64,000 bases of DNA from Myxococcales bacterium (GTDB lineage Bacteria > Myxococcota_A > Bradymonadia > UBA7976 > UBA1532), in the NCBI GenBank assembly GCA_002731825.1, contig PCCS01000001.1, positions 202,962-266,961 on the forward strand, given 5' to 3'. Under the pieces are notes generated by a model, which saw only the letters and a list, made by a program, of their open reading frames with translations, was not told where the DNA came from and did no database searches. The position numbers and the translations under genes were made by a program. How positions within the stretch are numbered: position 1 is the first letter of the stretch; every line of letters begins with the position of its first letter. Shown piece after piece: positions 55,615-63,035 of the stretch.

Positions 55615-56517
55615 ATGAATCGCTCAATTGGTGTACGCAGTCTCATTTCGGCGGGTATTAACAAGTTAAAGGCACCGACAGATGAGATCCCGATTACAGG
55701 AAGCCGGCGTGCTTTGGTCATGGCCATCGCAGCGCAGAAGGGCGGAGTGGGTAAAACAACCACCACAGTCAACCTGGCATGCGCATGGGCAAAGCAGTCT
55801 AAGTATCGCATTCTCGTCATCGACATTGACCCTCAAGGGCACGTGTCGTCCTCGCTCCGGGAAAACATCAAGCCAGCCTCGTCGACGTTGACGGATATTC
55901 TCTTGGCCGAGAGACCACGGGATATTTTGGACGCTGTCTTTCAAACCAATTTACCCAATTTGAGTTTAACAGCCGCTGATAAGGGGCTCGCCGAAACTGA
56001 TGCCCAGATGGCGAGCCGAGTTGGTCGTGAATACATTCTTAAGAGTGCCATCGCCAACGCAAGGAGCCATTTCGATATTATTCTCATCGATTGTCCACCC
56101 AATTTGGGCAACCTGACACTCAATGCGCTCGTGGCAGCTGATCATGTCCTGGTGCCCTGTGATATGAGCATTCTCGCCTTCGAAGGTGTTGCGGACCTAC
56201 TGGGCACTGTTCGAACTGTCAATTTGCGGCTCGGCCAGAATCTCGACGTTGCGGGCATTATTCGAACCCGCGTCGATGGGCGGACCCGGCAAATTAATGA
56301 TGCCATTGGTGGGGCACTTCGAGATAATTACGGCGACCTTCTTTTGGACACCATTATCCCGATTAATTCGGCCCTAGCAAAAGCCCAGGCGGCGGGTCTG
56401 AGCATATTTGAATTTCAGGCTCGTTCCAGGGGGGCAGAAGCCTATCTTGATCTGTCTAATGAGCTTGAGGGCCGTTTGTCACTCGGTGCAGGTCAGGACC
56501 GTGTTTCGACCTATTGA
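55615..56517 (+). CDS. ParA/MinD-family ATPase (orphan, no ParB nearby)
   Basis: Deviant Walker A AAQKGGVGKTTTTVNLA, ILVIDIDPQG, IILIDCPPNLG. GGAGG RBS. Confidence 0.85.
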   Translation: MNRSIGVRSLISAGINKLKAPTDEIPITGSRRALVMAIAAQKGGVGKTTTTVNLACAWAKQSKYRILVIDIDPQGHVSSSLRENIKPASSTLTDILLAERPRDILDAVFQTNLPNLSLTAADKGLAETDAQMASRVGREYILKSAIANARSHFDIILIDCPPNLGNLTLNALVAADHVLVPCDMSILAFEGVADLLGTVRTVNLRLGQNLDVAGIIRTRVDGRTRQINDAIGGALRDNYGDLLLDTIIPINSALAKAQAAGLSIFEFQARSRGAEAYLDLSNELEGRLSLGAGQDRVSTY

Positions 56518-56641
56518 TTCACCTGATGATCCATATTCAATAAAGGAAACTCAGTCCCTTCATCCGCGGATTATAACGGTCCGGCGCAGTGATCGTGTAT
56601 ACTGAAGTCTATCTTGTATTTGTCGTAGGTCTTGAGCGAAA

Positions 56642-58654
56642 TTGAACCTCCGTTCATCATCATCAAAGAGCATCAAACGAGTCCCGAAAGCAGCGCCTAA
56701 GTCAGGACGCAAGCGCAGACAGCGCCAGCCGGTACCCGTAACCGCGGACTTATTACGGTCGACGCCGTTCTTTGCCAACTTGCCGAAAGACTATCTCGAT
56801 GCATTGGTTCCGCGGGCGGAGCATGTTGAGTTGGCCCGTGGCGACGACGCATTTAATGCCCGTCCAGTCGGTGGTCAAGATATGGCATTGTTCCTGGTCT
56901 TGTTCGGAGACCTAAGCGTTCACAGAACCCAAAATAAGGGCCCAGAGGAGACAGTAAATTACCTCACCGTCGGTGATTTCTTCGTCGAAAGACTTATCGT
57001 CGATGACGATACAAAATCTATACGGTTAACCGCCATGTGTCCGGTGCGGCTTTTGAAGGTCAGTTACGCTGACTTCAATGTTTTGCTGCGGGCTCACGAT
57101 GACCTTCGCGGCGCTTTTTCCGACCGCATCCGAGATGTGGTCGATCGCCAAAAATCCAGATTTGATGATGCTTTCCAAAAAGAGATCGCTCGTTTCTTAG
57201 TCCAAGAACGACTCACTTTTGCCGGGCGAGTGAAACTCAAGCGCATGGACTTGTGCATCGAATGTGATGGCTGCTATTCGGCATGCAAAGATCGTCATGG
57301 GACTGATCGTCTGGGTCCAAGTGAGGTGAAATATGGACTCACTGAGGTTCCCCAGAACTGCCACAACTGTGTGGTTCCTGAATGTATGGACAAATGTAAG
57401 TTTGGACACATCGGGCGACATGCTGTCACCGGTGAAATTGTCATAGACGATAATTGCATTGGCTGCACAATGTGCAGCAAGGGATGTAGCTTTGGGTCCA
57501 TTCGGATGCACCCGATCGCTGAGCTGGATATGGAAAAGTATTTTCCAAATCGGTCGCCCGATGCCAAAGGTAAAGCCATTGCTCAGAAATGTGATAACTG
57601 CACTGGCTACGAAGACAAGGCATGCATTTCGGCGTGTCCTACAGGGGCTCTATTTCAGCTGGATGGCGCTGAGTTATTTGATAATTGGCGACAATTTTCC
57701 CCGCAATCCGTGCCCGATGGTGACGCCATCGAGAGTCCCAATGAGTTTCCTCATGGCTGGCGACAATTCTGGGTGGCGCTGACGGTTTTCGTCACTGTTT
57801 TTCTGTCTTGGGAATGCTTCGGCCGTTTGTACTGGCCCAAAGTTACTTTCGCAGAACTCTTTTTCCAGCTCGGCTGGTCTGAATCTGGGGTTGACCCAGT
57901 TGTGCCCTTTCGTGCGGGTGACTTTTTCAGTCATGCCCTTGGTTACATTGGCGGCGGTCTGATGATCGGGACACAAGTGTATCGATTGAGGGGTCGATTC
58001 AGTACAACACCTGTCTTGATGGAGGCTCATATCTGGATGGGTGTGATCGGGTTTATCATGGCGTTTTTTCACACCGCTTTCGTCTTCAGTGATCCCATTG
58101 CCGTGGCCACGTTTTTGACCATGTTTTTGGCCGTACTCACGGGGACCATCGGACGCTATGTTGTCTATATCGTGCCTCGGAACAAACATGGTCATGAACT
58201 TCTCCTAGACGAAGTCAATGACCGTATTGGTGATGTGACTAGGCAAATCGAGGGCGTTTTTTCCGACCCAAGTGTCGGTCATACGGCCATCGTCAGATTG
58301 AAAGATATCATGGGTCAGGAGAAAAGCGAGAGAGCGCTGGTGTCCACAGAGTCTCGTGGGTGGCGGCCGTTCATTGCGCTTTTAGTCGATTTAATTCGGC
58401 GTGATGCACTCACCAAAAAACGCGTCTCAGACCTTGCGAGCGAACTGAGTCATGGCCTTGAAGACGATAATCAGAGCGCCCAGGTCGAGACTCTGATGAC
58501 CGAGAAAAGCCGCTTGGAACGGGCCATTATGCAGCATGCATTTTTGTCCAAGGTCTTAAAAAGATATCGAATTGTCCATGTCACGAGCAGTAACATCATG
58601 TTTGGAGCGCTTGTTTTACATATTGTTTTCGCGTTGATGTATCAGGTGAATTGA
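56642..58654 (+). CDS. fusion: cNMP-binding-like domain + four-cluster (16-Cys) ferredoxin + 5-TM domain with two His-x13-His helices (di-haem b type)
   Basis: TTG is the only possible start (in-frame TGA at 56633). There is no signal peptide. cNMP text is LLRSTPFFANLPKDYLDAL...GDFFVE...IRLTAM. Cys groups are C205/208/211/215, C240/243/248/252, C272/275/278/282 and C317/320/328/332. TM helices carry H463/H477 and H646/H660. Confidence 0.7.
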   Translation: MNLRSSSSKSIKRVPKAAPKSGRKRRQRQPVPVTADLLRSTPFFANLPKDYLDALVPRAEHVELARGDDAFNARPVGGQDMALFLVLFGDLSVHRTQNKGPEETVNYLTVGDFFVERLIVDDDTKSIRLTAMCPVRLLKVSYADFNVLLRAHDDLRGAFSDRIRDVVDRQKSRFDDAFQKEIARFLVQERLTFAGRVKLKRMDLCIECDGCYSACKDRHGTDRLGPSEVKYGLTEVPQNCHNCVVPECMDKCKFGHIGRHAVTGEIVIDDNCIGCTMCSKGCSFGSIRMHPIAELDMEKYFPNRSPDAKGKAIAQKCDNCTGYEDKACISACPTGALFQLDGAELFDNWRQFSPQSVPDGDAIESPNEFPHGWRQFWVALTVFVTVFLSWECFGRLYWPKVTFAELFFQLGWSESGVDPVVPFRAGDFFSHALGYIGGGLMIGTQVYRLRGRFSTTPVLMEAHIWMGVIGFIMAFFHTAFVFSDPIAVATFLTMFLAVLTGTIGRYVVYIVPRNKHGHELLLDEVNDRIGDVTRQIEGVFSDPSVGHTAIVRLKDIMGQEKSERALVSTESRGWRPFIALLVDLIRRDALTKKRVSDLASELSHGLEDDNQSAQVETLMTEKSRLERAIMQHAFLSKVLKRYRIVHVTSSNIMFGALVLHIVFALMYQVN

Positions 58655-58804
58655 GGCTAAACTGACGCTGGGACGGATGTTTTTCGGCTCTGTCAAATCA
58701 GAGTCAAACGGGGACTGTTTGAGTCAATTAGCGTCCGATAATGACCCTAATTGAAAAAGTAGCTACGATGTCCGGTAAAGTTATCACAGGATACGCACGA
58801 TTAT

Positions 58805-61123
58805 ATGGGGCGCCCCTCGGCACAGACTAGGTCAGTCATTCGTCGGTTTATTCTGCCAACCATTACCGTTTGGGCACTCTTTACTCTGTTTTGCAATTCA
58901 CAGGTTTTTGCTGTCGGCCCCCTATCGACGCCTCATGCGCGGTACGACAATAACAACGATTGCACGAAGTGCCATGACATCTTTGGTGGTATGCCCAATC
59001 GAAACTGCCTCAATTGCCATAAGAGAATTGGCCAAAGGATCAGTGCTCGAAAAGGCTATCATGGGCGTAACGCAGCCGGTGCCAAATGTCATGACTGCCA
59101 TCGCGAACATCGTGGGCGTGGCTACGGGATTACCCAACTCAACCGGCGAACGTTTGATCATAAAACCACGGGTTGGTCGCTGACGGGTGGCCATACCCGT
59201 GTTCCATGCCGGGAATGCCACAGTGCAAAGAGGCCTGGAACGAATCGAGACAGTTACCTAGGTGCGCCGACCAGCTGTAATGGCTGCCACGGTAGCTATC
59301 ATGGACAGGGCCAAAAAGCTGAGTTGAATCGGTGCCAGGATTGTCACAACACCCAAAATTGGGCCTCTCTTAACGAAAAGTTAAAGTTTAACCACAACAC
59401 CCAAACCAATTTTCCACTGACAGGTCTTCATCGAGACGCGTCATGTGATAAGTGTCATCTCGGCAAGCGTAATTTCGGACCAATTGAGGTCTCCGGCTGT
59501 GTATCCTGCCATAAAAATCCCCATCCGATCGGCGTATTTGGATCACCCCGCAAGTGCGAGGAATGTCATATGACCAGCGGATTTAAGAAAACAAATGTCT
59601 TTGACCATTCAACGGCGGGCTGGCCCCTCCGTGGTAAGCACGCGGTCAATGCATGTACGGACTGTCATTCCTGGGAGAAATGGCGGCCGCCAACCAACGA
59701 TTGTCGAGGGTGTCATGTCGATGTCCATAAGGGGCAATTTGGGCGACAGCGATGCGATAGTTGTCACAAACAGACAGGCTTCACGGGACGGCACTTGAAG
59801 TTTAATCACAATACGATGAGCCGCTTTCCTCTGAAGGGCCGTCATACGCGTGTCGATTGTGCGAGCTGCCACCCTGGTGGTCATTACAAACCCTTGCCCA
59901 TGGAATGCGCCGATTGCCACCAAGATGACAATCCACACGGGGATAAGTTTGGTGATACGCCATGCAGCAATTGTCACTCACCGGTCGATTGGATGAAGAC
60001 GCGCTTTGACCACAGTGTCACCGGATTTGCTCTCGAAGAACGTCATGCCGAACAGCCATGTTATCGTTGCCATCCCAATGGGACAGAGACCGAAGACGAC
60101 ACGGAAAGGCGCTGTTCATTTTGTCATACAGACGTTCATCAAGGCCAATTCGAAGCCCCGCTGGACCAGCTCAATCGGGCCCTTGAACCGAAACAAGCAT
60201 CGGACGGCTGTGACAAATGTCATGCGGGTTTCCGGTCCTGGAAGATCCCGTTTTTCGATCACACCATAAGCCAGTTTTCACTGACCGGTCAGCACCAGAC
60301 GGTCCCCTGTACAGGCTGTCATACTCAGGGTCATTTCAAACCCATTGATGCGGCGTGTGCCAATTGTCATTACAACTTTCATGAGGGTCAGTTTAGTCAG
60401 CCATGTGACCAGTGTCATACCACCAAGGCCTGGTCGCCATTGGAGGAATTTGACCACAATACGAGGACTGAATATCGACTGGATGGCCGTCATGAAGAGG
60501 TTGATTGCGGCAAGTGTCATACGAACAATATTTATACAGACACGCCGAAAGAGTGCGCGGAGTGTCACGTCGATGTCCACAAGGGCAAGTTGGGCCCGGG
60601 CTGTGATCGCTGTCATGGCGTCGAAGACTGGTCAATCAACACCATGCAAGACCATGATTTTGGTGCTTTTCGGTTGGGAGGAGTCCATGACCTATTGGCC
60701 TGTGAGGAGTGTCATGGTCCAGACCGCAAGGAGACGCAAGCCGGGCGAGGTCCAGAATGTGTAAATTGCCATCGCGATCCCCATTTTGGGAGTTTTGGCC
60801 CTCAATGTTTCGAATGCCATAATCAGCAAGCATTCTTGCCCAGTACCTTTCTACATGCGGAAACGGGCTTTAGACTCTCCGGGGCGCACCGCTTTGTTGA
60901 ATGTCGTGATTGCCATCCAGGCCGTGTGTTCGGCGGACTCCCCAATGATTGCTTCTTTTGCCATACACAAGATTTCAATGCCACGGCCGGCAGCAAGCTC
61001 TGCGACCATACGGCCTGTATTCCGGGTGGGCTGGATTCCTGTCACAACTGTCATCGATCGACCAGTTTTGTCCCAGCGAGACCCGGTTCAGGGTGTGGGG
61101 TCTGTGAGGTCAATGGCCGATGA
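58805..61123 (+). CDS. periplasmic multihaem cytochrome c, 30 CXXCH motifs (c7/c3-type tri-haem units)
   Basis: Signal peptide (ITVWALFTLFCNSQVFA|VGP). I counted 30 CXXCH motifs in 772 aa, arranged 3 per unit. Confidence 0.9.
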   Translation: MGRPSAQTRSVIRRFILPTITVWALFTLFCNSQVFAVGPLSTPHARYDNNNDCTKCHDIFGGMPNRNCLNCHKRIGQRISARKGYHGRNAAGAKCHDCHREHRGRGYGITQLNRRTFDHKTTGWSLTGGHTRVPCRECHSAKRPGTNRDSYLGAPTSCNGCHGSYHGQGQKAELNRCQDCHNTQNWASLNEKLKFNHNTQTNFPLTGLHRDASCDKCHLGKRNFGPIEVSGCVSCHKNPHPIGVFGSPRKCEECHMTSGFKKTNVFDHSTAGWPLRGKHAVNACTDCHSWEKWRPPTNDCRGCHVDVHKGQFGRQRCDSCHKQTGFTGRHLKFNHNTMSRFPLKGRHTRVDCASCHPGGHYKPLPMECADCHQDDNPHGDKFGDTPCSNCHSPVDWMKTRFDHSVTGFALEERHAEQPCYRCHPNGTETEDDTERRCSFCHTDVHQGQFEAPLDQLNRALEPKQASDGCDKCHAGFRSWKIPFFDHTISQFSLTGQHQTVPCTGCHTQGHFKPIDAACANCHYNFHEGQFSQPCDQCHTTKAWSPLEEFDHNTRTEYRLDGRHEEVDCGKCHTNNIYTDTPKECAECHVDVHKGKLGPGCDRCHGVEDWSINTMQDHDFGAFRLGGVHDLLACEECHGPDRKETQAGRGPECVNCHRDPHFGSFGPQCFECHNQQAFLPSTFLHAETGFRLSGAHRFVECRDCHPGRVFGGLPNDCFFCHTQDFNATAGSKLCDHTACIPGGLDSCHNCHRSTSFVPARPGSGCGVCEVNGR
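59153..61054 (+). repeat. intragenic tandem array of nine diverged tri-haem modules (65-83 aa each)
   Basis: Most modules open with F-[DN]-H (module 8 has QDH, module 9 FLH), followed by [FW]-x-L-x-G-x-H-x4-C-x2-C-H (residues 117, 195, 266, 333, 401, 484, 549, 615, 682), and each contains exactly three CXXCH. Confidence 0.8.
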
Positions 61124-62442
61124 AATCGATGCAGCAGTGGATTCTCGTGTTCTCATTATTCCTGCTTTCTATCCCCTCCGCTGGGGGCGAAGAGTTGAAA
61201 ATCGATGGCCGCGTTGCGTCACGTAGTCTCTACTCAACAGCTGACGGACCCGTCTCCAAAGATGTGCTATTCCAGTTTGTAGATTTGGATTTAGATGTTG
61301 AGAATATGGGCCCCTTTGACACGGCTCTCACACTAGATGCCACGCTTCTTTGGGATATCAGCGAAGTCAAAGAACGACGATTTGGCGAGACTCAGTCATT
61401 TCAGCAGCTCAGACAACTCTATCTTCAACAGGCTTTCACTCAAAAGTGGACCGTGTCGGCCGGTCGGCGCATTATTTTTCAGGCTGGAAATGCTTGGGTT
61501 GACGGCCTTGATGTTCAGCTCAAATTGAATTCGACGATGATGGTTGGTGCCTACGGTGGGCTGAGGCCCGACCCGAACAGCTATCAGCCAACAACGACGT
61601 ACCAGACGGTGGGCAGTTACTCGAGTTACAAACGAGACGGACTGAACGTCGAACTGGGCTACAACCTGATTTTGAGGGACGGATTGGATCGTCAGTTTCT
61701 GTATGGGCGAACCCATTATCGATTGGCCCCAGGCCTTTACGTAAACGTCTATTCGGTCGTCGATACACTCGATGAAATTGAGCCTGTAACACTATTGTCG
61801 ACCCTTGATTATACCCCCACAAAGGCGGTTAATCTGTCCATTAACTATACGCGCTACAGTATTGAAGCGTACCGCAATCAGGCCATCTATCGAAATGTCG
61901 TTCGCCTCAACCAAGCGCTACTGCTCGGTGATGAAATCATCGACCTTGTCTACAATCGTGTCCGTCTGTCTGGTTCCTATCGATTTTGGCGGCGCTATTA
62001 TCACTATCAGACCATCGAGTACAAGAGGCGGAGCCAAGACCGGAGGCAATCTTGGGCCTACACCATAGGACTTCGTAATAGCGACCTATTCTCGACGGGG
62101 ACACGGTTCGACCTGCGGACAACCATTCGAAATAATTTTCAGAGTGATTCCTGGTTGATCGCCGGTGATTTGGAGAAAGACATCTTTTTGGAACTGACCC
62201 TGAATGGCCATGTCACGGTTTTCGATGGGCGTACTATTGACCGGTTTACGGAGCGGGGGCGCACATTCGATGAAGCGCAACGTATTTATCTGATGGGCGG
62301 CTCTTTATTCTGGCGGCCCTCCCGGGCACATCATCTGAGTTTGACCTACGACGGTGTCTACGAAACCGACCTGATCGACCAGCGGAACGACGCAGCCTTG
62401 TTTATTCACACAGGATTATTTCGTTACGCCTATCATTTCTGA
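61120..62442 (+). CDS. outer-membrane beta-barrel protein translationally coupled to the cytochrome
   Basis: ATGA overlap with the cytochrome stop. Signal peptide (ILVFSLFLLSIPSAGG|EE), alternating strand pattern rich in Y/R/D/G/N, and a C-terminal OMP-type ending FRYAYHF. Confidence 0.75.
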   Translation: MKSMQQWILVFSLFLLSIPSAGGEELKIDGRVASRSLYSTADGPVSKDVLFQFVDLDLDVENMGPFDTALTLDATLLWDISEVKERRFGETQSFQQLRQLYLQQAFTQKWTVSAGRRIIFQAGNAWVDGLDVQLKLNSTMMVGAYGGLRPDPNSYQPTTTYQTVGSYSSYKRDGLNVELGYNLILRDGLDRQFLYGRTHYRLAPGLYVNVYSVVDTLDEIEPVTLLSTLDYTPTKAVNLSINYTRYSIEAYRNQAIYRNVVRLNQALLLGDEIIDLVYNRVRLSGSYRFWRRYYHYQTIEYKRRSQDRRQSWAYTIGLRNSDLFSTGTRFDLRTTIRNNFQSDSWLIAGDLEKDIFLELTLNGHVTVFDGRTIDRFTERGRTFDEAQRIYLMGGSLFWRPSRAHHLSLTYDGVYETDLIDQRNDAALFIHTGLFRYAYHF

Positions 62443-62477
62443 CGGTCTCTCGAACGGGTGGGTTAGGACCAGCGGCG

Positions 62478-63035
62478 TCACACTTCCATAAGTTCGTCTT
62501 CTTTGCGTCCAACAATGCCATCGATGGTCTCTGTTGCGCCATCCGTCAAGCCCTGAACCTTGTCCAAGGATTTCTTAAGCTCATCTTCTGTTAAGTCGCC
62601 ATCTTTCTGGAGGGCTTTGAGCATTGCGTTGGCATCTCGTCGGCTATTACGTGCCGACACCTTAGCCGTTTCACCTAATTTCTGAACTGTCTTGACCAGT
62701 TCTTTCCGTCTTTCTTCCGTCAATGGAGGAATCGACAGACGAATCACTGTGCCGTCATTGGATGGATTAAGCCCCAGATTCGACTGCTGAATCGCGCGCT
62801 CAACATCTCCCAGAAGGTCTTTCTCCCAGGGCTTTATAGAAATTGTTCTCGGCTCTGGAATCTGCAGCGATGCGACTTGATTGAGCGGTGTCGGTTGTCC
62901 GTAGTAGGATACCCTAATGTTGTCGAGTAAATTGACGTTCGCGCGACCCGAACGCACTCTGGCGAGATCCCGGCGCAGGGCGCTATAGGTCTTCTCAAAA
63001 GTCGCTTTTAAGTCTTCGTAGATTTCGTCTTCCAT
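62478..63035 (-). CDS. frr: ribosome recycling factor
   Basis: 185 aa with RSGRANVNLLDNIRVSYYGQPTPLNQVA and PPLTEERRKELVK. Confidence 0.95.
   Translation of the reverse strand: MEDEIYEDLKATFEKTYSALRRDLARVRSGRANVNLLDNIRVSYYGQPTPLNQVASLQIPEPRTISIKPWEKDLLGDVERAIQQSNLGLNPSNDGTVIRLSIPPLTEERRKELVKTVQKLGETAKVSARNSRRDANAMLKALQKDGDLTEDELKKSLDKVQGLTDGATETIDGIVGRKEDELMEV

What the first reader, a model, noticed from the sequence alone, without database searches (positions are those of the whole stretch)
58805..61123. 30-haem cytochrome c built from ten tri-haem units (nine tandem F-[DN]-H...G-x-H-x4-CXXCH modules)
Seen: a Sec signal and 30 CXXCH motifs by my count. There are three in the N-terminal 116 aa, then nine modules of 65-83 aa starting at residues 117, 195, 266, 333, 401, 484, 549, 615 and 682. 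Each module has exactly three CXXCH and a conserved opening (for example FDHKTTGWSLTGGHTRVPCRECH, FNHNTQTNFPLTGLHRDASCDKCH). Established: the F-x-H-x2-H...CXXCH opening recalls tri-haem cytochrome c7 (PpcA). Geobacter encodes polymers of c7-type domains (12- and 27-haem proteins) proposed as 'nanowire' or capacitor cytochromes. Inference: a chain of about 30 haems could bridge or store charge across the periplasm.
Basis: partly seen in the sequence, partly recalled or inferred. Interest (0 to 1): 0.6.

Follow-up and report, generated by a model that had tools for sequence, protein, structure and literature searches.

The report
30-haem cytochrome wired to outer-membrane barrel
This gene encodes a real 30-haem protein "wire" that always comes with its own outer-membrane barrel and an iron-sulfur/haem-b inner-membrane protein, so it is most likely the middle of a three-protein circuit carrying electrons across the whole envelope of uncultured Myxococcota.

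Summary
ORF 58805-61123 (+) encodes a 772-aa Sec-exported protein with exactly 30 CXXCH motifs, three per ~67-aa repeat.

In 53 orthologues all 30 motifs are invariant. So are 29 further His (a 30th is 98% conserved), and no Met is conserved. All haems are therefore most likely bis-His.

The c7 reading is only partly right. Pfam Cytochrome_C7 matches strongly overall. Single units fit it only in a register shifted by one haem. The ligand order differs from PpcA and GSU1996, and there is no His-Met haem.

The context matters more than the c7 question:
- The gene overlaps (ATGA) a 440-aa gene for a confidently modelled, plug-less 22-strand beta-barrel with no Pfam family.
- This cytochrome-then-barrel pair holds in 21/21 named MAG loci. 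Fourteen of 14 distant barrel homologues also follow a multihaem cytochrome gene.
- A fused cNMP-like/4x[4Fe-4S]/di-haem-b membrane protein (56642-58654) co-occurs with the barrel: both present in 25, both absent in 4, of 31 genomes of the order.

Its membrane domain has the motifs published for the predicted, untested PCC3/PCC4/"Ptd" porin-cytochrome clusters. I read this as a streamlined three-gene variant of that kind, with one periplasm-spanning cytochrome. Function and direction of electron flow are inferred, and expression could not be tested.

The parts
58805..61123 (+). Gene for the 772-aa, 30-haem c-type cytochrome (stop codon included)
   Evidence: ORF. 30 CXXCH. Pfam Cytochrome_C7, Cytochrom_c3_2 and Cytochrom_CIII. 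53 orthologues with all motifs invariant.
58805..58912 (+). Sec signal peptide (aa 1-36, predicted cleavage VFA|VG)
   Evidence: Read from the sequence. Orthologues all carry a signal peptide ending just before the conserved PLSxxHAxLD. The RR motif is not conserved.
58913..59152 (+). N-terminal tri-haem unit (aa 37-116; CXXCH at 53, 68, 95; candidate distal His 44, 86, 102)
   Evidence: On its own it best matches Cytochrom_CIII (30.7 bits, cutoff 22.9).
59153..61120 (+). Nine tandem tri-haem repeats (aa 117-772), consensus F-D-H-x10-H-x4-CXXCH-x12-18-CXXCH-x3-H-x8-10-CXXCH. The Pfam c7 register is shifted by one haem relative to these units.
   Evidence: Module alignment A1. Per-unit Pfam scans in two registers.
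60647..60949 (+). Candidate partner-docking region (aa ~615-715). It has the highest non-ligand conservation in the protein and the lowest AlphaFold confidence.
   Evidence: Conservation 0.67-0.78 here against about 0.53 elsewhere. pLDDT 44-58. That it is an interface is inference.
61001..61105 (+). C-terminal tail with four extra, mostly conserved Cys (C733, C738/739, C764, C767) outside any CXXCH. Role unknown (disulfides or a metal site).
   Evidence: Column counts of 41, 42, 39 and 44 out of 53.
61120..62442 (+). Gene for the 440-aa partner, a 22-strand outer-membrane beta-barrel. Its ATG overlaps the cytochrome's TGA (ATGA).
   Evidence: Sequence of the junction. AlphaFold pLDDT 85.4, pTM 0.78, 22 strands, no plug. 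Only generic OMP fold matches. No Pfam, NCBIfam or PDB sequence match. Adjacent to the cytochrome gene in every locus examined.
61864..61944 (+). Barrel loop between strands 13 and 14 (aa 249-275; predicted extracellular loop 7). It is the most conserved part of the barrel but has pLDDT below 50. Candidate lumen or cytochrome contact.
   Evidence: That it is a contact site is inference.
56642..58654 (+). Upstream gene for a 670-aa fusion: cNMP-binding-like domain, four Cys4 motifs (up to four [4Fe-4S]), and a 5-TM domain with H-x13-H on TM3 and TM5 and TGxxG on TM4. Candidate inner-membrane entry point of the circuit.
   Evidence: Pfam. 16 invariant Cys, and H463, H477, H646 and H660 invariant in 16 orthologues. 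Co-occurrence with the barrel in 29 of 31 genomes. The motifs are as published for PCC3/PCC4 inner-membrane proteins and for PtdE/PtdF.

Best explanation
The 30-haem protein is the periplasmic wire of a three-protein, envelope-spanning electron conduit.

It is exported by Sec and matured by the lineage's Ccm (System I) machinery. It carries 30 bis-His haems in ten c3/c7-like tri-haem units, at about 25 residues per haem. If it is as extended as GSU1996 (12 haems over 12 nm), it would be roughly 25-30 nm long, enough to cross the periplasm as one polypeptide.

One end, probably the highly conserved C-terminal two units, docks in or at the lumen of the translationally coupled 22-strand outer-membrane barrel, as MtrA does in MtrB. 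The other end receives electrons from, or gives them to, the two b-haems of the fused Fe-S/membrane protein. That protein's four [4Fe-4S] clusters face the cytoplasm.

The most likely direction of flow is outward: cytoplasmic reductant, then Fe-S, then haem b, then 30 haems c, then barrel, then an extracellular acceptor.

Shown here:
- the 30 haem motifs and their candidate ligands;
- the barrel fold;
- gene coupling and co-occurrence of the three genes;
- the motifs of the inner-membrane partner.

Inferred:
- physical contacts between the three proteins;
- an extended shape;
- the direction of flow and the substrate.
For: - 30 CXXCH and 30 conserved non-motif His, with no conserved Met.
- Pfam c7/c3 membership.
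- A 4-nt ATGA overlap with the barrel gene.
- The barrel model has 22 strands, pLDDT 85 and no plug.
- The cytochrome gene lies directly upstream of the barrel gene in 21/21 named MAG loci, with 30 CXXCH in 20/20 complete copies.
- The same pair, with 30 haems, occurs in a distant family (L020) and with 27 haems in L028 and L029.
- 14/14 distant barrel homologues in other Myxococcota families lie directly downstream of a multihaem cytochrome gene with 6-36 CXXCH.
- The Fe-S/membrane gene and the barrel gene are both present in 25 and both absent in 4 of 31 genomes of the order. They are adjacent in about 19, and both are kept even where unlinked.
- The triad is conserved at 25-34% identity in L028.
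- The inner-membrane partner has 16 invariant Fe-S Cys and two invariant H-x13-H pairs. These match the published PCC3/PCC4 inner-membrane protein signature and the PtdE/PtdF description.
- The most conserved stretch of each protein is the one AlphaFold cannot place in the monomer.
- CcmE is present in 27/31 genomes of the order.
- GSU1996 spans 12 nm with 12 haems, and long periplasmic multihaem cytochromes have been proposed to span the periplasm.
Against: - There is no experimental or expression evidence.
- The AlphaFold model of the cytochrome is only moderate (pLDDT 66, pTM 0.31) and lacks haems. I could not read coordinates, so extension and length are untested.
- The barrel has no detectable relationship to MtrB/PioB, and its fold matches are generic.
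- The Fe-S/membrane gene is not adjacent in about a quarter of loci.
- No extracellular cytochrome or obvious terminal reductase is in the cluster.
- These organisms have haem-copper oxidases (27/31), so a respiratory need for extracellular electron transfer is not obvious.
- This genome's own assembly lacks ccm genes and COX1. It is 82% complete, so they probably fall in the unassembled part.
Confidence: 0.6

Rival explanations
1. Soluble periplasmic electron store ('capacitor'), as proposed for Geobacter GSU1996 and GSU2210. The cytochrome buffers electrons in the periplasm and exchanges them with various partners. The downstream barrel is a porin with some other task.
For: The protein has tandem tri-haem units of the c3/c7 superfamily, a Sec signal and no lipobox or membrane anchor. 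The capacitor role of GSU1996 is described in PMC10138318. PCC3 multihaem cytochromes were also suggested to store electrons.
Against: The coupling to the barrel gene is strict: an ATGA overlap, 21/21 close loci and 14/14 distant barrel homologues. The barrel family occurs only next to multihaem cytochrome genes in every locus examined. The haem number is held at exactly 30 in 51/53 orthologues, which fits a length constraint better than a storage role. Storage and conduction are not mutually exclusive.
Confidence: 0.15
2. Surface-displayed or secreted wire. The barrel is a dedicated export and anchoring pore, and most of the 30-haem chain lies outside the cell as an extracellular contact wire. 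This would be functionally like the extracellular multihaem cytochrome of PCC3, or like cytochrome filaments.
For: No separate extracellular cytochrome is encoded in the cluster. A plug-less 22-strand barrel is wide enough for a polypeptide or a haem domain. Its best fold match is the FimD usher, an export pore, though at low TM-score.
Against: A folded, haem-loaded c-type cytochrome is matured in the periplasm and would have to pass the barrel folded. The tight genomic link with an inner-membrane Fe-S/haem-b protein then leaves the periplasm unbridged. No periplasmic shuttle cytochrome is conserved in the cluster, although L028 does have a small c7-like one.
Confidence: 0.12
3. Same three-part conduit, but run inward. 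Electrons are taken up from extracellular Fe(II), Mn(II), reduced humics or a partner cell, as proposed for MtoAB/PioAB and originally for PCC3/PCC4.
For: A two-component cytochrome-plus-barrel without an outer cytochrome resembles MtoAB/PioAB. He et al. 2017 modelled PCC3 and PCC4 as uptake systems. The organisms have oxygen reductases that could serve as the sink.
Against: The inner-membrane partner ends in four cytoplasmic [4Fe-4S] clusters, with no recognisable quinone-site protein or link to oxidases. Low-potential Fe-S clusters are an unlikely sink for Fe(II)-derived electrons. All-bis-His haems usually have low potentials (general knowledge), which favours outward flow. None of this is decisive.
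Confidence: 0.13

Closest known systems
PCC4 subgroup II / 'Ptd' (ptdABCDEFG) predicted porin-cytochrome clusters (He et al. 2017, PMC5566968; bioRxiv 10.1101/2023.11.21.568154). Predicted from genomes, transcribed in situ, never tested biochemically.
   Same: Both have an outer-membrane barrel gene directly after a multihaem cytochrome gene and no extracellular cytochrome. Both have an inner-membrane ferric-reductase-like protein with 5 TM helices, [ST]GxxG on TM4 and H-x13-H on TM3 and TM5. Both have a cNMP-binding-domain protein with 4Fe-4S clusters (PtdE; the Fer4_11 gene of PCC4-II). Many members are marine or aquatic uncultured bacteria.
   Different: Here the cNMP/Fe-S protein and the membrane protein are fused into one 670-aa polypeptide. 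The three small cytochromes (4, 5 and 10 haems) are replaced by a single 30-haem chain of tri-haem repeats. No FAD/NAD(P) oxidoreductase (PtdC) lies in the cluster. The lineage is Myxococcota. Homology of the barrel to PtdB or the PCC4 porin was not tested.
PCC3 predicted porin-cytochrome clusters (He et al. 2017; Gallionellaceae survey PMC10734462)
   Same: PCC3 has a periplasmic multihaem cytochrome with 21, 24 or 27 haems (multiples of three), a very low residues-per-haem ratio and repeat structure, proposed to span the periplasm. It also has a porin and an inner-membrane protein with the two H-x13-H motifs.
   Different: PCC3 also has a large extracellular cytochrome (10-85 haems), which is absent here. 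Its inner-membrane protein is a separate ~300-aa protein without an Fe-S domain. Sequence homology between the PCC3 periplasmic cytochrome and this protein was not tested.
Geobacter sulfurreducens c7-type polymers GSU1996, GSU0592 (12 haems) and GSU2210 (27 haems)
   Same: These are single polypeptides built from tandem tri-haem units of the c3/c7 superfamily. They are periplasmic, and GSU1996 is extended (12 nm for 12 haems).
   Different: GSU1996 has one His-Met haem per domain. Here no Met is conserved and 30 His are available. The order of ligands along the sequence differs. Profile similarity is weak and carried by the CXXCH motifs (E=2.6e-8, each stretch i-Evalue about 0.4-0.8). A dedicated barrel partner is not described for the Geobacter proteins (from my knowledge; not tested here).
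MtrAB / MtoAB / PioAB porin-cytochrome complexes
   Same: The gene order is cytochrome then barrel. The logic is a haem chain insulated inside an outer-membrane barrel. MtoAB and PioAB likewise lack an outer cytochrome.
   Different: MtrA is a decahaem of NrfB-like pentahaem modules, about 10 nm long, and needs soluble periplasmic shuttles. MtrB has 26 strands and its own Pfam family (MtrB_PioB), which this barrel does not match. The module profile hits the 333-residue chain 6r2q_A, which I take to be MtrA of the MtrCAB structure although the table labels it otherwise, only at E=2.9e-8.

Membership tests
Cytochrome c7 (PpcA-type tri-haem) / Pfam PF14522 | About 70-aa unit with three CXXCH haem sites | tested here: met
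   Ten units of 65-91 aa, three CXXCH each.
Cytochrome c7 (PpcA-type tri-haem) / Pfam PF14522 | Score above the Pfam gathering threshold | tested here: met
The whole protein scores 116.9 bits against 24.8, in 8 stretches.
Cytochrome c7 (PpcA-type tri-haem) / Pfam PF14522 | All three haems bis-His | tested here: met
   By sequence only. 29 non-motif His are invariant and H44 is 98% conserved, giving 30 for 30 haems. No Met is conserved.
Cytochrome c7 (PpcA-type tri-haem) / Pfam PF14522 | Canonical ligand order H-x2-H, haem I, His, haem III, haem IV (PpcA His17, His20, His47; recalled from the literature) | tested here: not met
   The order here is H-x10-H, CXXCH, CXXCH-x3-H, CXXCH. No cyclic shift of the repeat reproduces the c7 order (the PpcA pattern is from memory).
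Cytochrome c7 (PpcA-type tri-haem) / Pfam PF14522 | Detectable similarity to solved c7 structures | tested here: inconclusive
   The full protein gives no PDB hit. With the module profile the best hits are 16-haem HmcA (2e-12), GSU1996 (2.6e-8) and a 'c7-like domain' protein 8k9e (5e-4). PpcA is not among the 60 listed. Foldseek on the haem-less model gave 0 hits.
Geobacter c7-type polymer cytochromes (GSU1996 type) | One His-Met haem in each tri-haem domain | tested here: not met
   There are 7 Met in the protein and none is conserved. The defining feature is taken from PMC10138318.
Geobacter c7-type polymer cytochromes (GSU1996 type) | Consistent domain-by-domain sequence alignment | tested here: not met
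   The alignment to 3ov0 is motif-driven, has long insertions and overlapping registers, and each stretch has an i-Evalue of 0.4-56. NCBIfam gave no c7-polymer model at E<=0.01.
MtrAB/PioAB/MtoAB porin-cytochrome | Barrel belongs to the MtrB_PioB family | tested here: not met
   There is no Pfam or NCBIfam hit for the barrel. The fold search returns only generic OMPs with TM-score at most 0.5.
MtrAB/PioAB/MtoAB porin-cytochrome | Cytochrome gene immediately upstream of, and co-inherited with, the barrel gene | tested here: met
MtrAB/PioAB/MtoAB porin-cytochrome | Cytochrome physically threaded through the barrel | not testable with these tools
   No complex prediction and no model coordinates were available.
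PCC3/PCC4/Ptd predicted conduits | Inner-membrane protein with 5 TM helices, SGXXG on TM4 and two (W)x3-H-x13-H motifs on TM3 and TM5 | tested here: met
   H463/H477 and H646/H660 are invariant in 16/16. TGxxG is present in 16/16. W at -4 on TM3 is present in 12/16, with L in this copy.
PCC3/PCC4/Ptd predicted conduits | cNMP-binding/4Fe-4S protein next to the membrane protein (PCC4-II, PtdE) | tested here: met
   It is present as an N-terminal fusion: cNMP_binding plus Fer4_7/9/11, with 16 invariant Cys.
PCC3/PCC4/Ptd predicted conduits | Cytochrome complement: PCC3 has periplasmic plus extracellular multihaem cytochromes; PCC4/Ptd has three cytochromes of 4, 5 and 10 haems | tested here: not met
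   A single 30-haem cytochrome is the only cytochrome gene between the Fe-S/membrane gene and the barrel gene. No other multihaem cytochrome lies in the neighbourhood.
PCC3/PCC4/Ptd predicted conduits | Sequence homology of the barrel and the cytochrome to PCC3/PCC4/Ptd components | not tested
   No reference sequences of those components could be obtained.

The most novel reading that the evidence does not exclude
This is a fully hard-wired, shuttle-free circuit made of only three polypeptides. A single 30-haem chain acts as a molecular ruler whose length, fixed at exactly 30 haems across the lineage, matches the width of the periplasm. It simultaneously touches a cytoplasm-facing Fe-S/di-haem-b exporter and a dedicated 22-strand barrel. 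Because the hosts are oxygen-respiring Myxococcota related to predatory Bradymonadia, the circuit may not be respiratory at all. It may instead be a NOX-like device that delivers cytoplasmic reducing power to the cell surface, for example to reduce extracellular metals or oxygen for iron acquisition or for attack on prey.
Probability: 0.2. Interest if true: 0.8.

Novelty: new variant of a known kind. Interest (0 to 1): 0.55.

Why it matters
In the characterised systems (Mtr, Pcc), the periplasm is crossed by diffusing small cytochromes. A single polypeptide that bridges both membranes has been proposed for PCC3-type clusters but never shown.

This family offers an unusually clean test case:
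- it has only three genes;
- the haem number is strictly conserved;
- there are no accessory cytochromes;
- the inner-membrane entry is a fusion that points to a cytoplasmic, not quinol, electron source.

If the architecture is confirmed, it would be the simplest complete trans-envelope wire known. It would be a natural template for synthetic bio-electronic interfaces. It would also extend extracellular electron transfer to aerobic, uncultured Myxococcota from what the record titles suggest are marine, lake and activated-sludge samples. In addition it defines an unnamed barrel family (about 100-400 clusters at 50% identity) that marks multihaem-cytochrome conduits in genomes.

Tried and rejected
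- phmmer of the full cytochrome and of the barrel against PDB gave no hits.
- Foldseek of the cytochrome model against PDB gave 0 matches. The model has no haems and little secondary structure.
- NCBIfam gave only sub-threshold hits to ExtN and HmcA.
- The barrel fold search gave only generic OMPs, so no family could be assigned.
- Promoter and terminator scans of 56400-62700 were at the level of shuffled controls, so nothing can be said about transcription units beyond the ATGA overlap.
- I tested whether the unannotated neighbours in L001 and L003 were displaced copies of the Fe-S/membrane protein. They are not. The gene is simply unlinked in those lineages.
- I considered that missing COX1 meant an anaerobe. 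I rejected this because 27/31 relatives, including a 100%-complete genome of the same genus, have it.
- I considered the single Cytochrom_C_asm hit as the maturation system. I rejected this because it is a HemX-like gene in a hemA-hemC-hemD cluster. The lineage uses Ccm (CcmE 27/31, ResB 0/31), and this assembly lacks the locus.
- I considered the 'RRFIL' motif as a Tat signal and rejected it (2 of 53).
- I looked for barrel-cytochrome fusions (Cyc2-like) among 150 barrel relatives and found none.
Full report
**1. The observation**

The window has an ORF at exactly 58805..61123 on the + strand, encoding 772 aa. A regex count finds 30 CXXCH, no CX3-4CH and no CXXCK. There are 65 Cys, 65 His and only 7 Met. 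With the protein's own Cys and His frequencies, fewer than one CXXCH would be expected by chance.

The spacing of the motifs is periodic: about 16-19, 16-19, then 32-37 residues.

The module consensus is F-D-H-x10-H-x4-CXXCH-x12-18-CXXCH-x3-H-x8-10-CXXCH.

The N-terminus is a Sec-type signal peptide. All orthologues have one, ending just before a conserved PLSxxHAxLD. The Tat-like RRFIL of this copy is not conserved (2 of 53).

**2. Selection and ligation**

The protein has thousands of homologues in metagenomes. The nearest are 53-62% identical, 720-815 aa long, and named only "hypothetical protein" from Myxococcota, Myxococcales or Bradymonadia MAGs.

- In an alignment of 53 orthologues, all 30 CXXCH are invariant. 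So are 29 further His, and a 30th (H44) is present in 52 of 53.
- No Met is conserved.
- The simplest reading is 30 bis-His haems.
- 51 of 53 orthologues have exactly 30 motifs.
- More distant relatives have 27, or 37-55. So 30 is not a record, but within this lineage the number is fixed.

**3. Is it c7?**

Pfam Cytochrome_C7 matches with 116.9 bits (cutoff 24.8) in eight stretches. Cytochrom_c3_2 and Cytochrom_CIII also match. Membership in the broad c3/c7 superfamily is therefore secure. The more specific claim does not hold well:

- **Register.** Units cut one haem earlier (the third CXXCH of one module plus the first two of the next) pass in 4 of 5 cases and cover profile positions 10-67.
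- **Ligand order.** The order of ligands (H, H, haem, haem, H, haem) cannot be rotated into the c7 order (H, H, haem, H, haem, haem). The PpcA pattern used for this comparison is from my memory of the literature.
- **His-Met haem.** GSU1996 domains each have one His-Met haem (PMC10138318). This protein has none.
- **Solved structures.** A profile of the ten units finds 16-haem HmcA best (2e-12). GSU1996 scores only 2.6e-8, through motif-driven alignments with an inconsistent register. PpcA is not among the listed hits.

I therefore file it as a c3/c7-superfamily tri-haem polymer. It is not a member of the Geobacter c7-polymer family.

**4. The partner barrel**

The cytochrome's TGA overlaps the ATG of the next gene (61120..62442) in the sequence ATGA.

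- The 440-aa product has a signal peptide and ends in an aromatic residue. It has no Pfam, NCBIfam or PDB sequence match.
- With a 50-sequence alignment, AlphaFold gives a confident model (pLDDT 85.4, pTM 0.78): 22 antiparallel strands with short turns on one side, longer loops on the other, and no plug domain.
- Foldseek returns only generic outer-membrane barrels, such as the FimD usher and Occ/OprD porins, with TM-score at most 0.5.
- The family is small. There are 68 close homologues. Among 1.84 billion representative proteins, 414 clusters match at E<=1e-3 and 105 at E<=1e-10. None is fused to a haem motif.

**5. Gene coupling**

- In 21 named genome loci found with the barrel profile, all from uncultured MAGs, the cytochrome gene is directly upstream in 21 of 21. 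It has 30 CXXCH in all 20 complete copies.
- A distant Myxococcota family (L020) has a 747-aa, 30-CXXCH cytochrome followed by a divergent barrel homologue.
- Relatives with 27 haems (34-38% identity) have the same 4-nt overlap with a barrel that matches the profile at 97-99% probability.
- In 14 of 14 weaker barrel homologues from other Myxococcota families, the gene directly upstream on the same strand is a multihaem cytochrome with 6-36 CXXCH.

The barrel family therefore behaves as a dedicated cytochrome partner. This is the genomic hallmark of porin-cytochrome complexes.

**6. The inner-membrane partner**

The gene upstream (56642..58654) encodes a cNMP-binding-like domain, 4Fe-4S dicluster domains and a membrane domain. 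It is directly upstream of the cytochrome gene in 15 of the 21 named loci (within 150 nt in 14, and 2.1 kb away with two inserted genes in L032). It is absent from the flank in the others.

Across the 31 genomes of the order:
- it and the barrel are both present in 25 and both absent in 4;
- the 2 discordant genomes are 77-80% complete, with the gene near a contig end;
- in two lineages the genes are unlinked, yet both are retained.

The triad recurs at 25% identity in L028.

In 16 orthologues the following are invariant:
- 16 Cys in four Cys4 motifs;
- H463/H477 and H646/H660, two H-x13-H pairs on TM3 and TM5;
- TGxxG on TM4.

That is the signature He et al. (2017) described for the inner-membrane proteins of their predicted PCC3 and PCC4 clusters. 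PCC4 subgroup II places a Fer4_11 gene just upstream of it. The "ptd" operon of marine bacteria likewise has a cNMP-binding-domain protein with 4Fe-4S clusters (PtdE) next to a ferric-reductase-like membrane protein (PtdF). Here the two are fused.

**7. Mechanism**

Putting these together, I propose the following path:
1. Electrons enter or leave at four cytoplasmic [4Fe-4S] clusters.
2. They cross the inner membrane through two b-haems.
3. They travel along 30 c-haems.
4. They reach the outside through a barrel-sheathed end of the cytochrome.

Evidence bearing on this:
- The haem density is about 25 residues per haem, lower than MtrA's ~33. He et al. take low ratios as a wire-like feature.
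- By analogy with GSU1996 (12 haems, 12 nm), the chain would be 25-30 nm if extended.
- There is a hint about which end docks. Residues ~620-710 are the most conserved non-ligand part of the cytochrome (0.67-0.78 against about 0.53) and the least confidently modelled. The barrel's most conserved segment is its one low-confidence loop (aa 249-275, between strands 13 and 14).
- Outward flow seems more likely, given the cytoplasmic Fe-S entry and all-bis-His haems. Inward flow is not excluded.

**8. Physiological frame**

- The lineage has haem-copper oxidases in 27 of 31 genomes.
- It has the Ccm System I marker CcmE in 27 of 31 and no ResB.
- This particular assembly (82% complete) lacks both loci. 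Its only Cytochrom_C_asm hit is a HemX-like gene in a haem-synthesis cluster.

The hosts are thus aerobes or facultative, and the role of the conduit is open.

**9. Novelty**

Predicted porin-cytochrome clusters with long periplasmic cytochromes are already in the literature (PCC3, PCC4, Ptd, and new clusters in peat bacteria). None has been tested biochemically.

This system shares their inner-membrane module and logic but differs in three ways:
- it has only three genes;
- the Fe-S and membrane proteins are fused;
- a single 30-haem tri-haem-repeat cytochrome replaces the set of smaller ones, with a barrel family that has no name.

I found no paper describing it in Myxococcota or Bradymonadia. 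I rate it a new variant of a known kind.

Noticed in passing
L005:9001-10560 and L006:5758-7362 (public MAG records JAYZEG010000063.1 and JBMHDS010000027.1); compare L030:4647-6971 and L031:4569-6938: The two closest public orthologues are annotated as 519- and 534-aa proteins with 21 CXXCH. The DNA contains intact 774- and 789-aa ORFs with 30 CXXCH. The start codons were called too far downstream, leaving about 0.9 kb unannotated.
   Followed up: partly
window 61001-61105 (aa 733-767 of the cytochrome): Four extra Cys outside any CXXCH (C-D-H-x2-3-C and C-G-x-C) are conserved in about 40 of 53 orthologues. H735 sits between the first pair and is invariant. They could form disulfides or a small metal site at the very C-terminus.
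   Followed up: partly
window 60128-60214 (aa ~442-470): A hypervariable, low-confidence insertion lies in the fifth repeat, between its second and third CXXCH. Conservation is 0.23-0.40 and pLDDT is below 50. It is the only non-conserved spacer in the chain.
   Followed up: no
L027:5560-7592 (= L032), genome G410 of the same genus: Two extra genes (254 and 417 aa, unannotated here) are inserted between the Fe-S/membrane gene and the cytochrome gene. In L028 a 162-aa protein and a small 198-aa c7-like cytochrome occupy the same position.
   Followed up: no
genome contig C35:12282-14331: The only Cytochrom_C_asm (PF01578) match in this assembly is a 258-aa HemX-like membrane protein directly upstream of hemA, hemC and a hemD/cobA fusion. 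It is not a CcsA or CcmF.
   Followed up: partly
whole genome (G000): Ten other ORFs have 3-11 CXXCH (for example 11 on C45, 9 on C34, 8 on C47 and C50, 7 on C12). None lies near the 30-haem gene. No COX1 or CcmE is in this 82%-complete assembly, although relatives have both.
   Followed up: partly
L052, L053, L054, L057, L058 (other Myxococcota families): Distant homologues of the barrel sit in larger clusters with two or three multihaem cytochromes (for example 8+20+10, 36+14, 23+13+29 CXXCH). These resemble PCC3-type layouts.
   Followed up: no
window 56642-57200 (N-terminal domain of the upstream protein): The cNMP-binding-like domain fused to the Fe-S module matches Pfam only weakly (31.5 bits, cutoff 27.5). 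The same domain is described for PtdE of the ptd operon, so it is a conserved feature of this class of conduits whose ligand is unknown.
   Followed up: no
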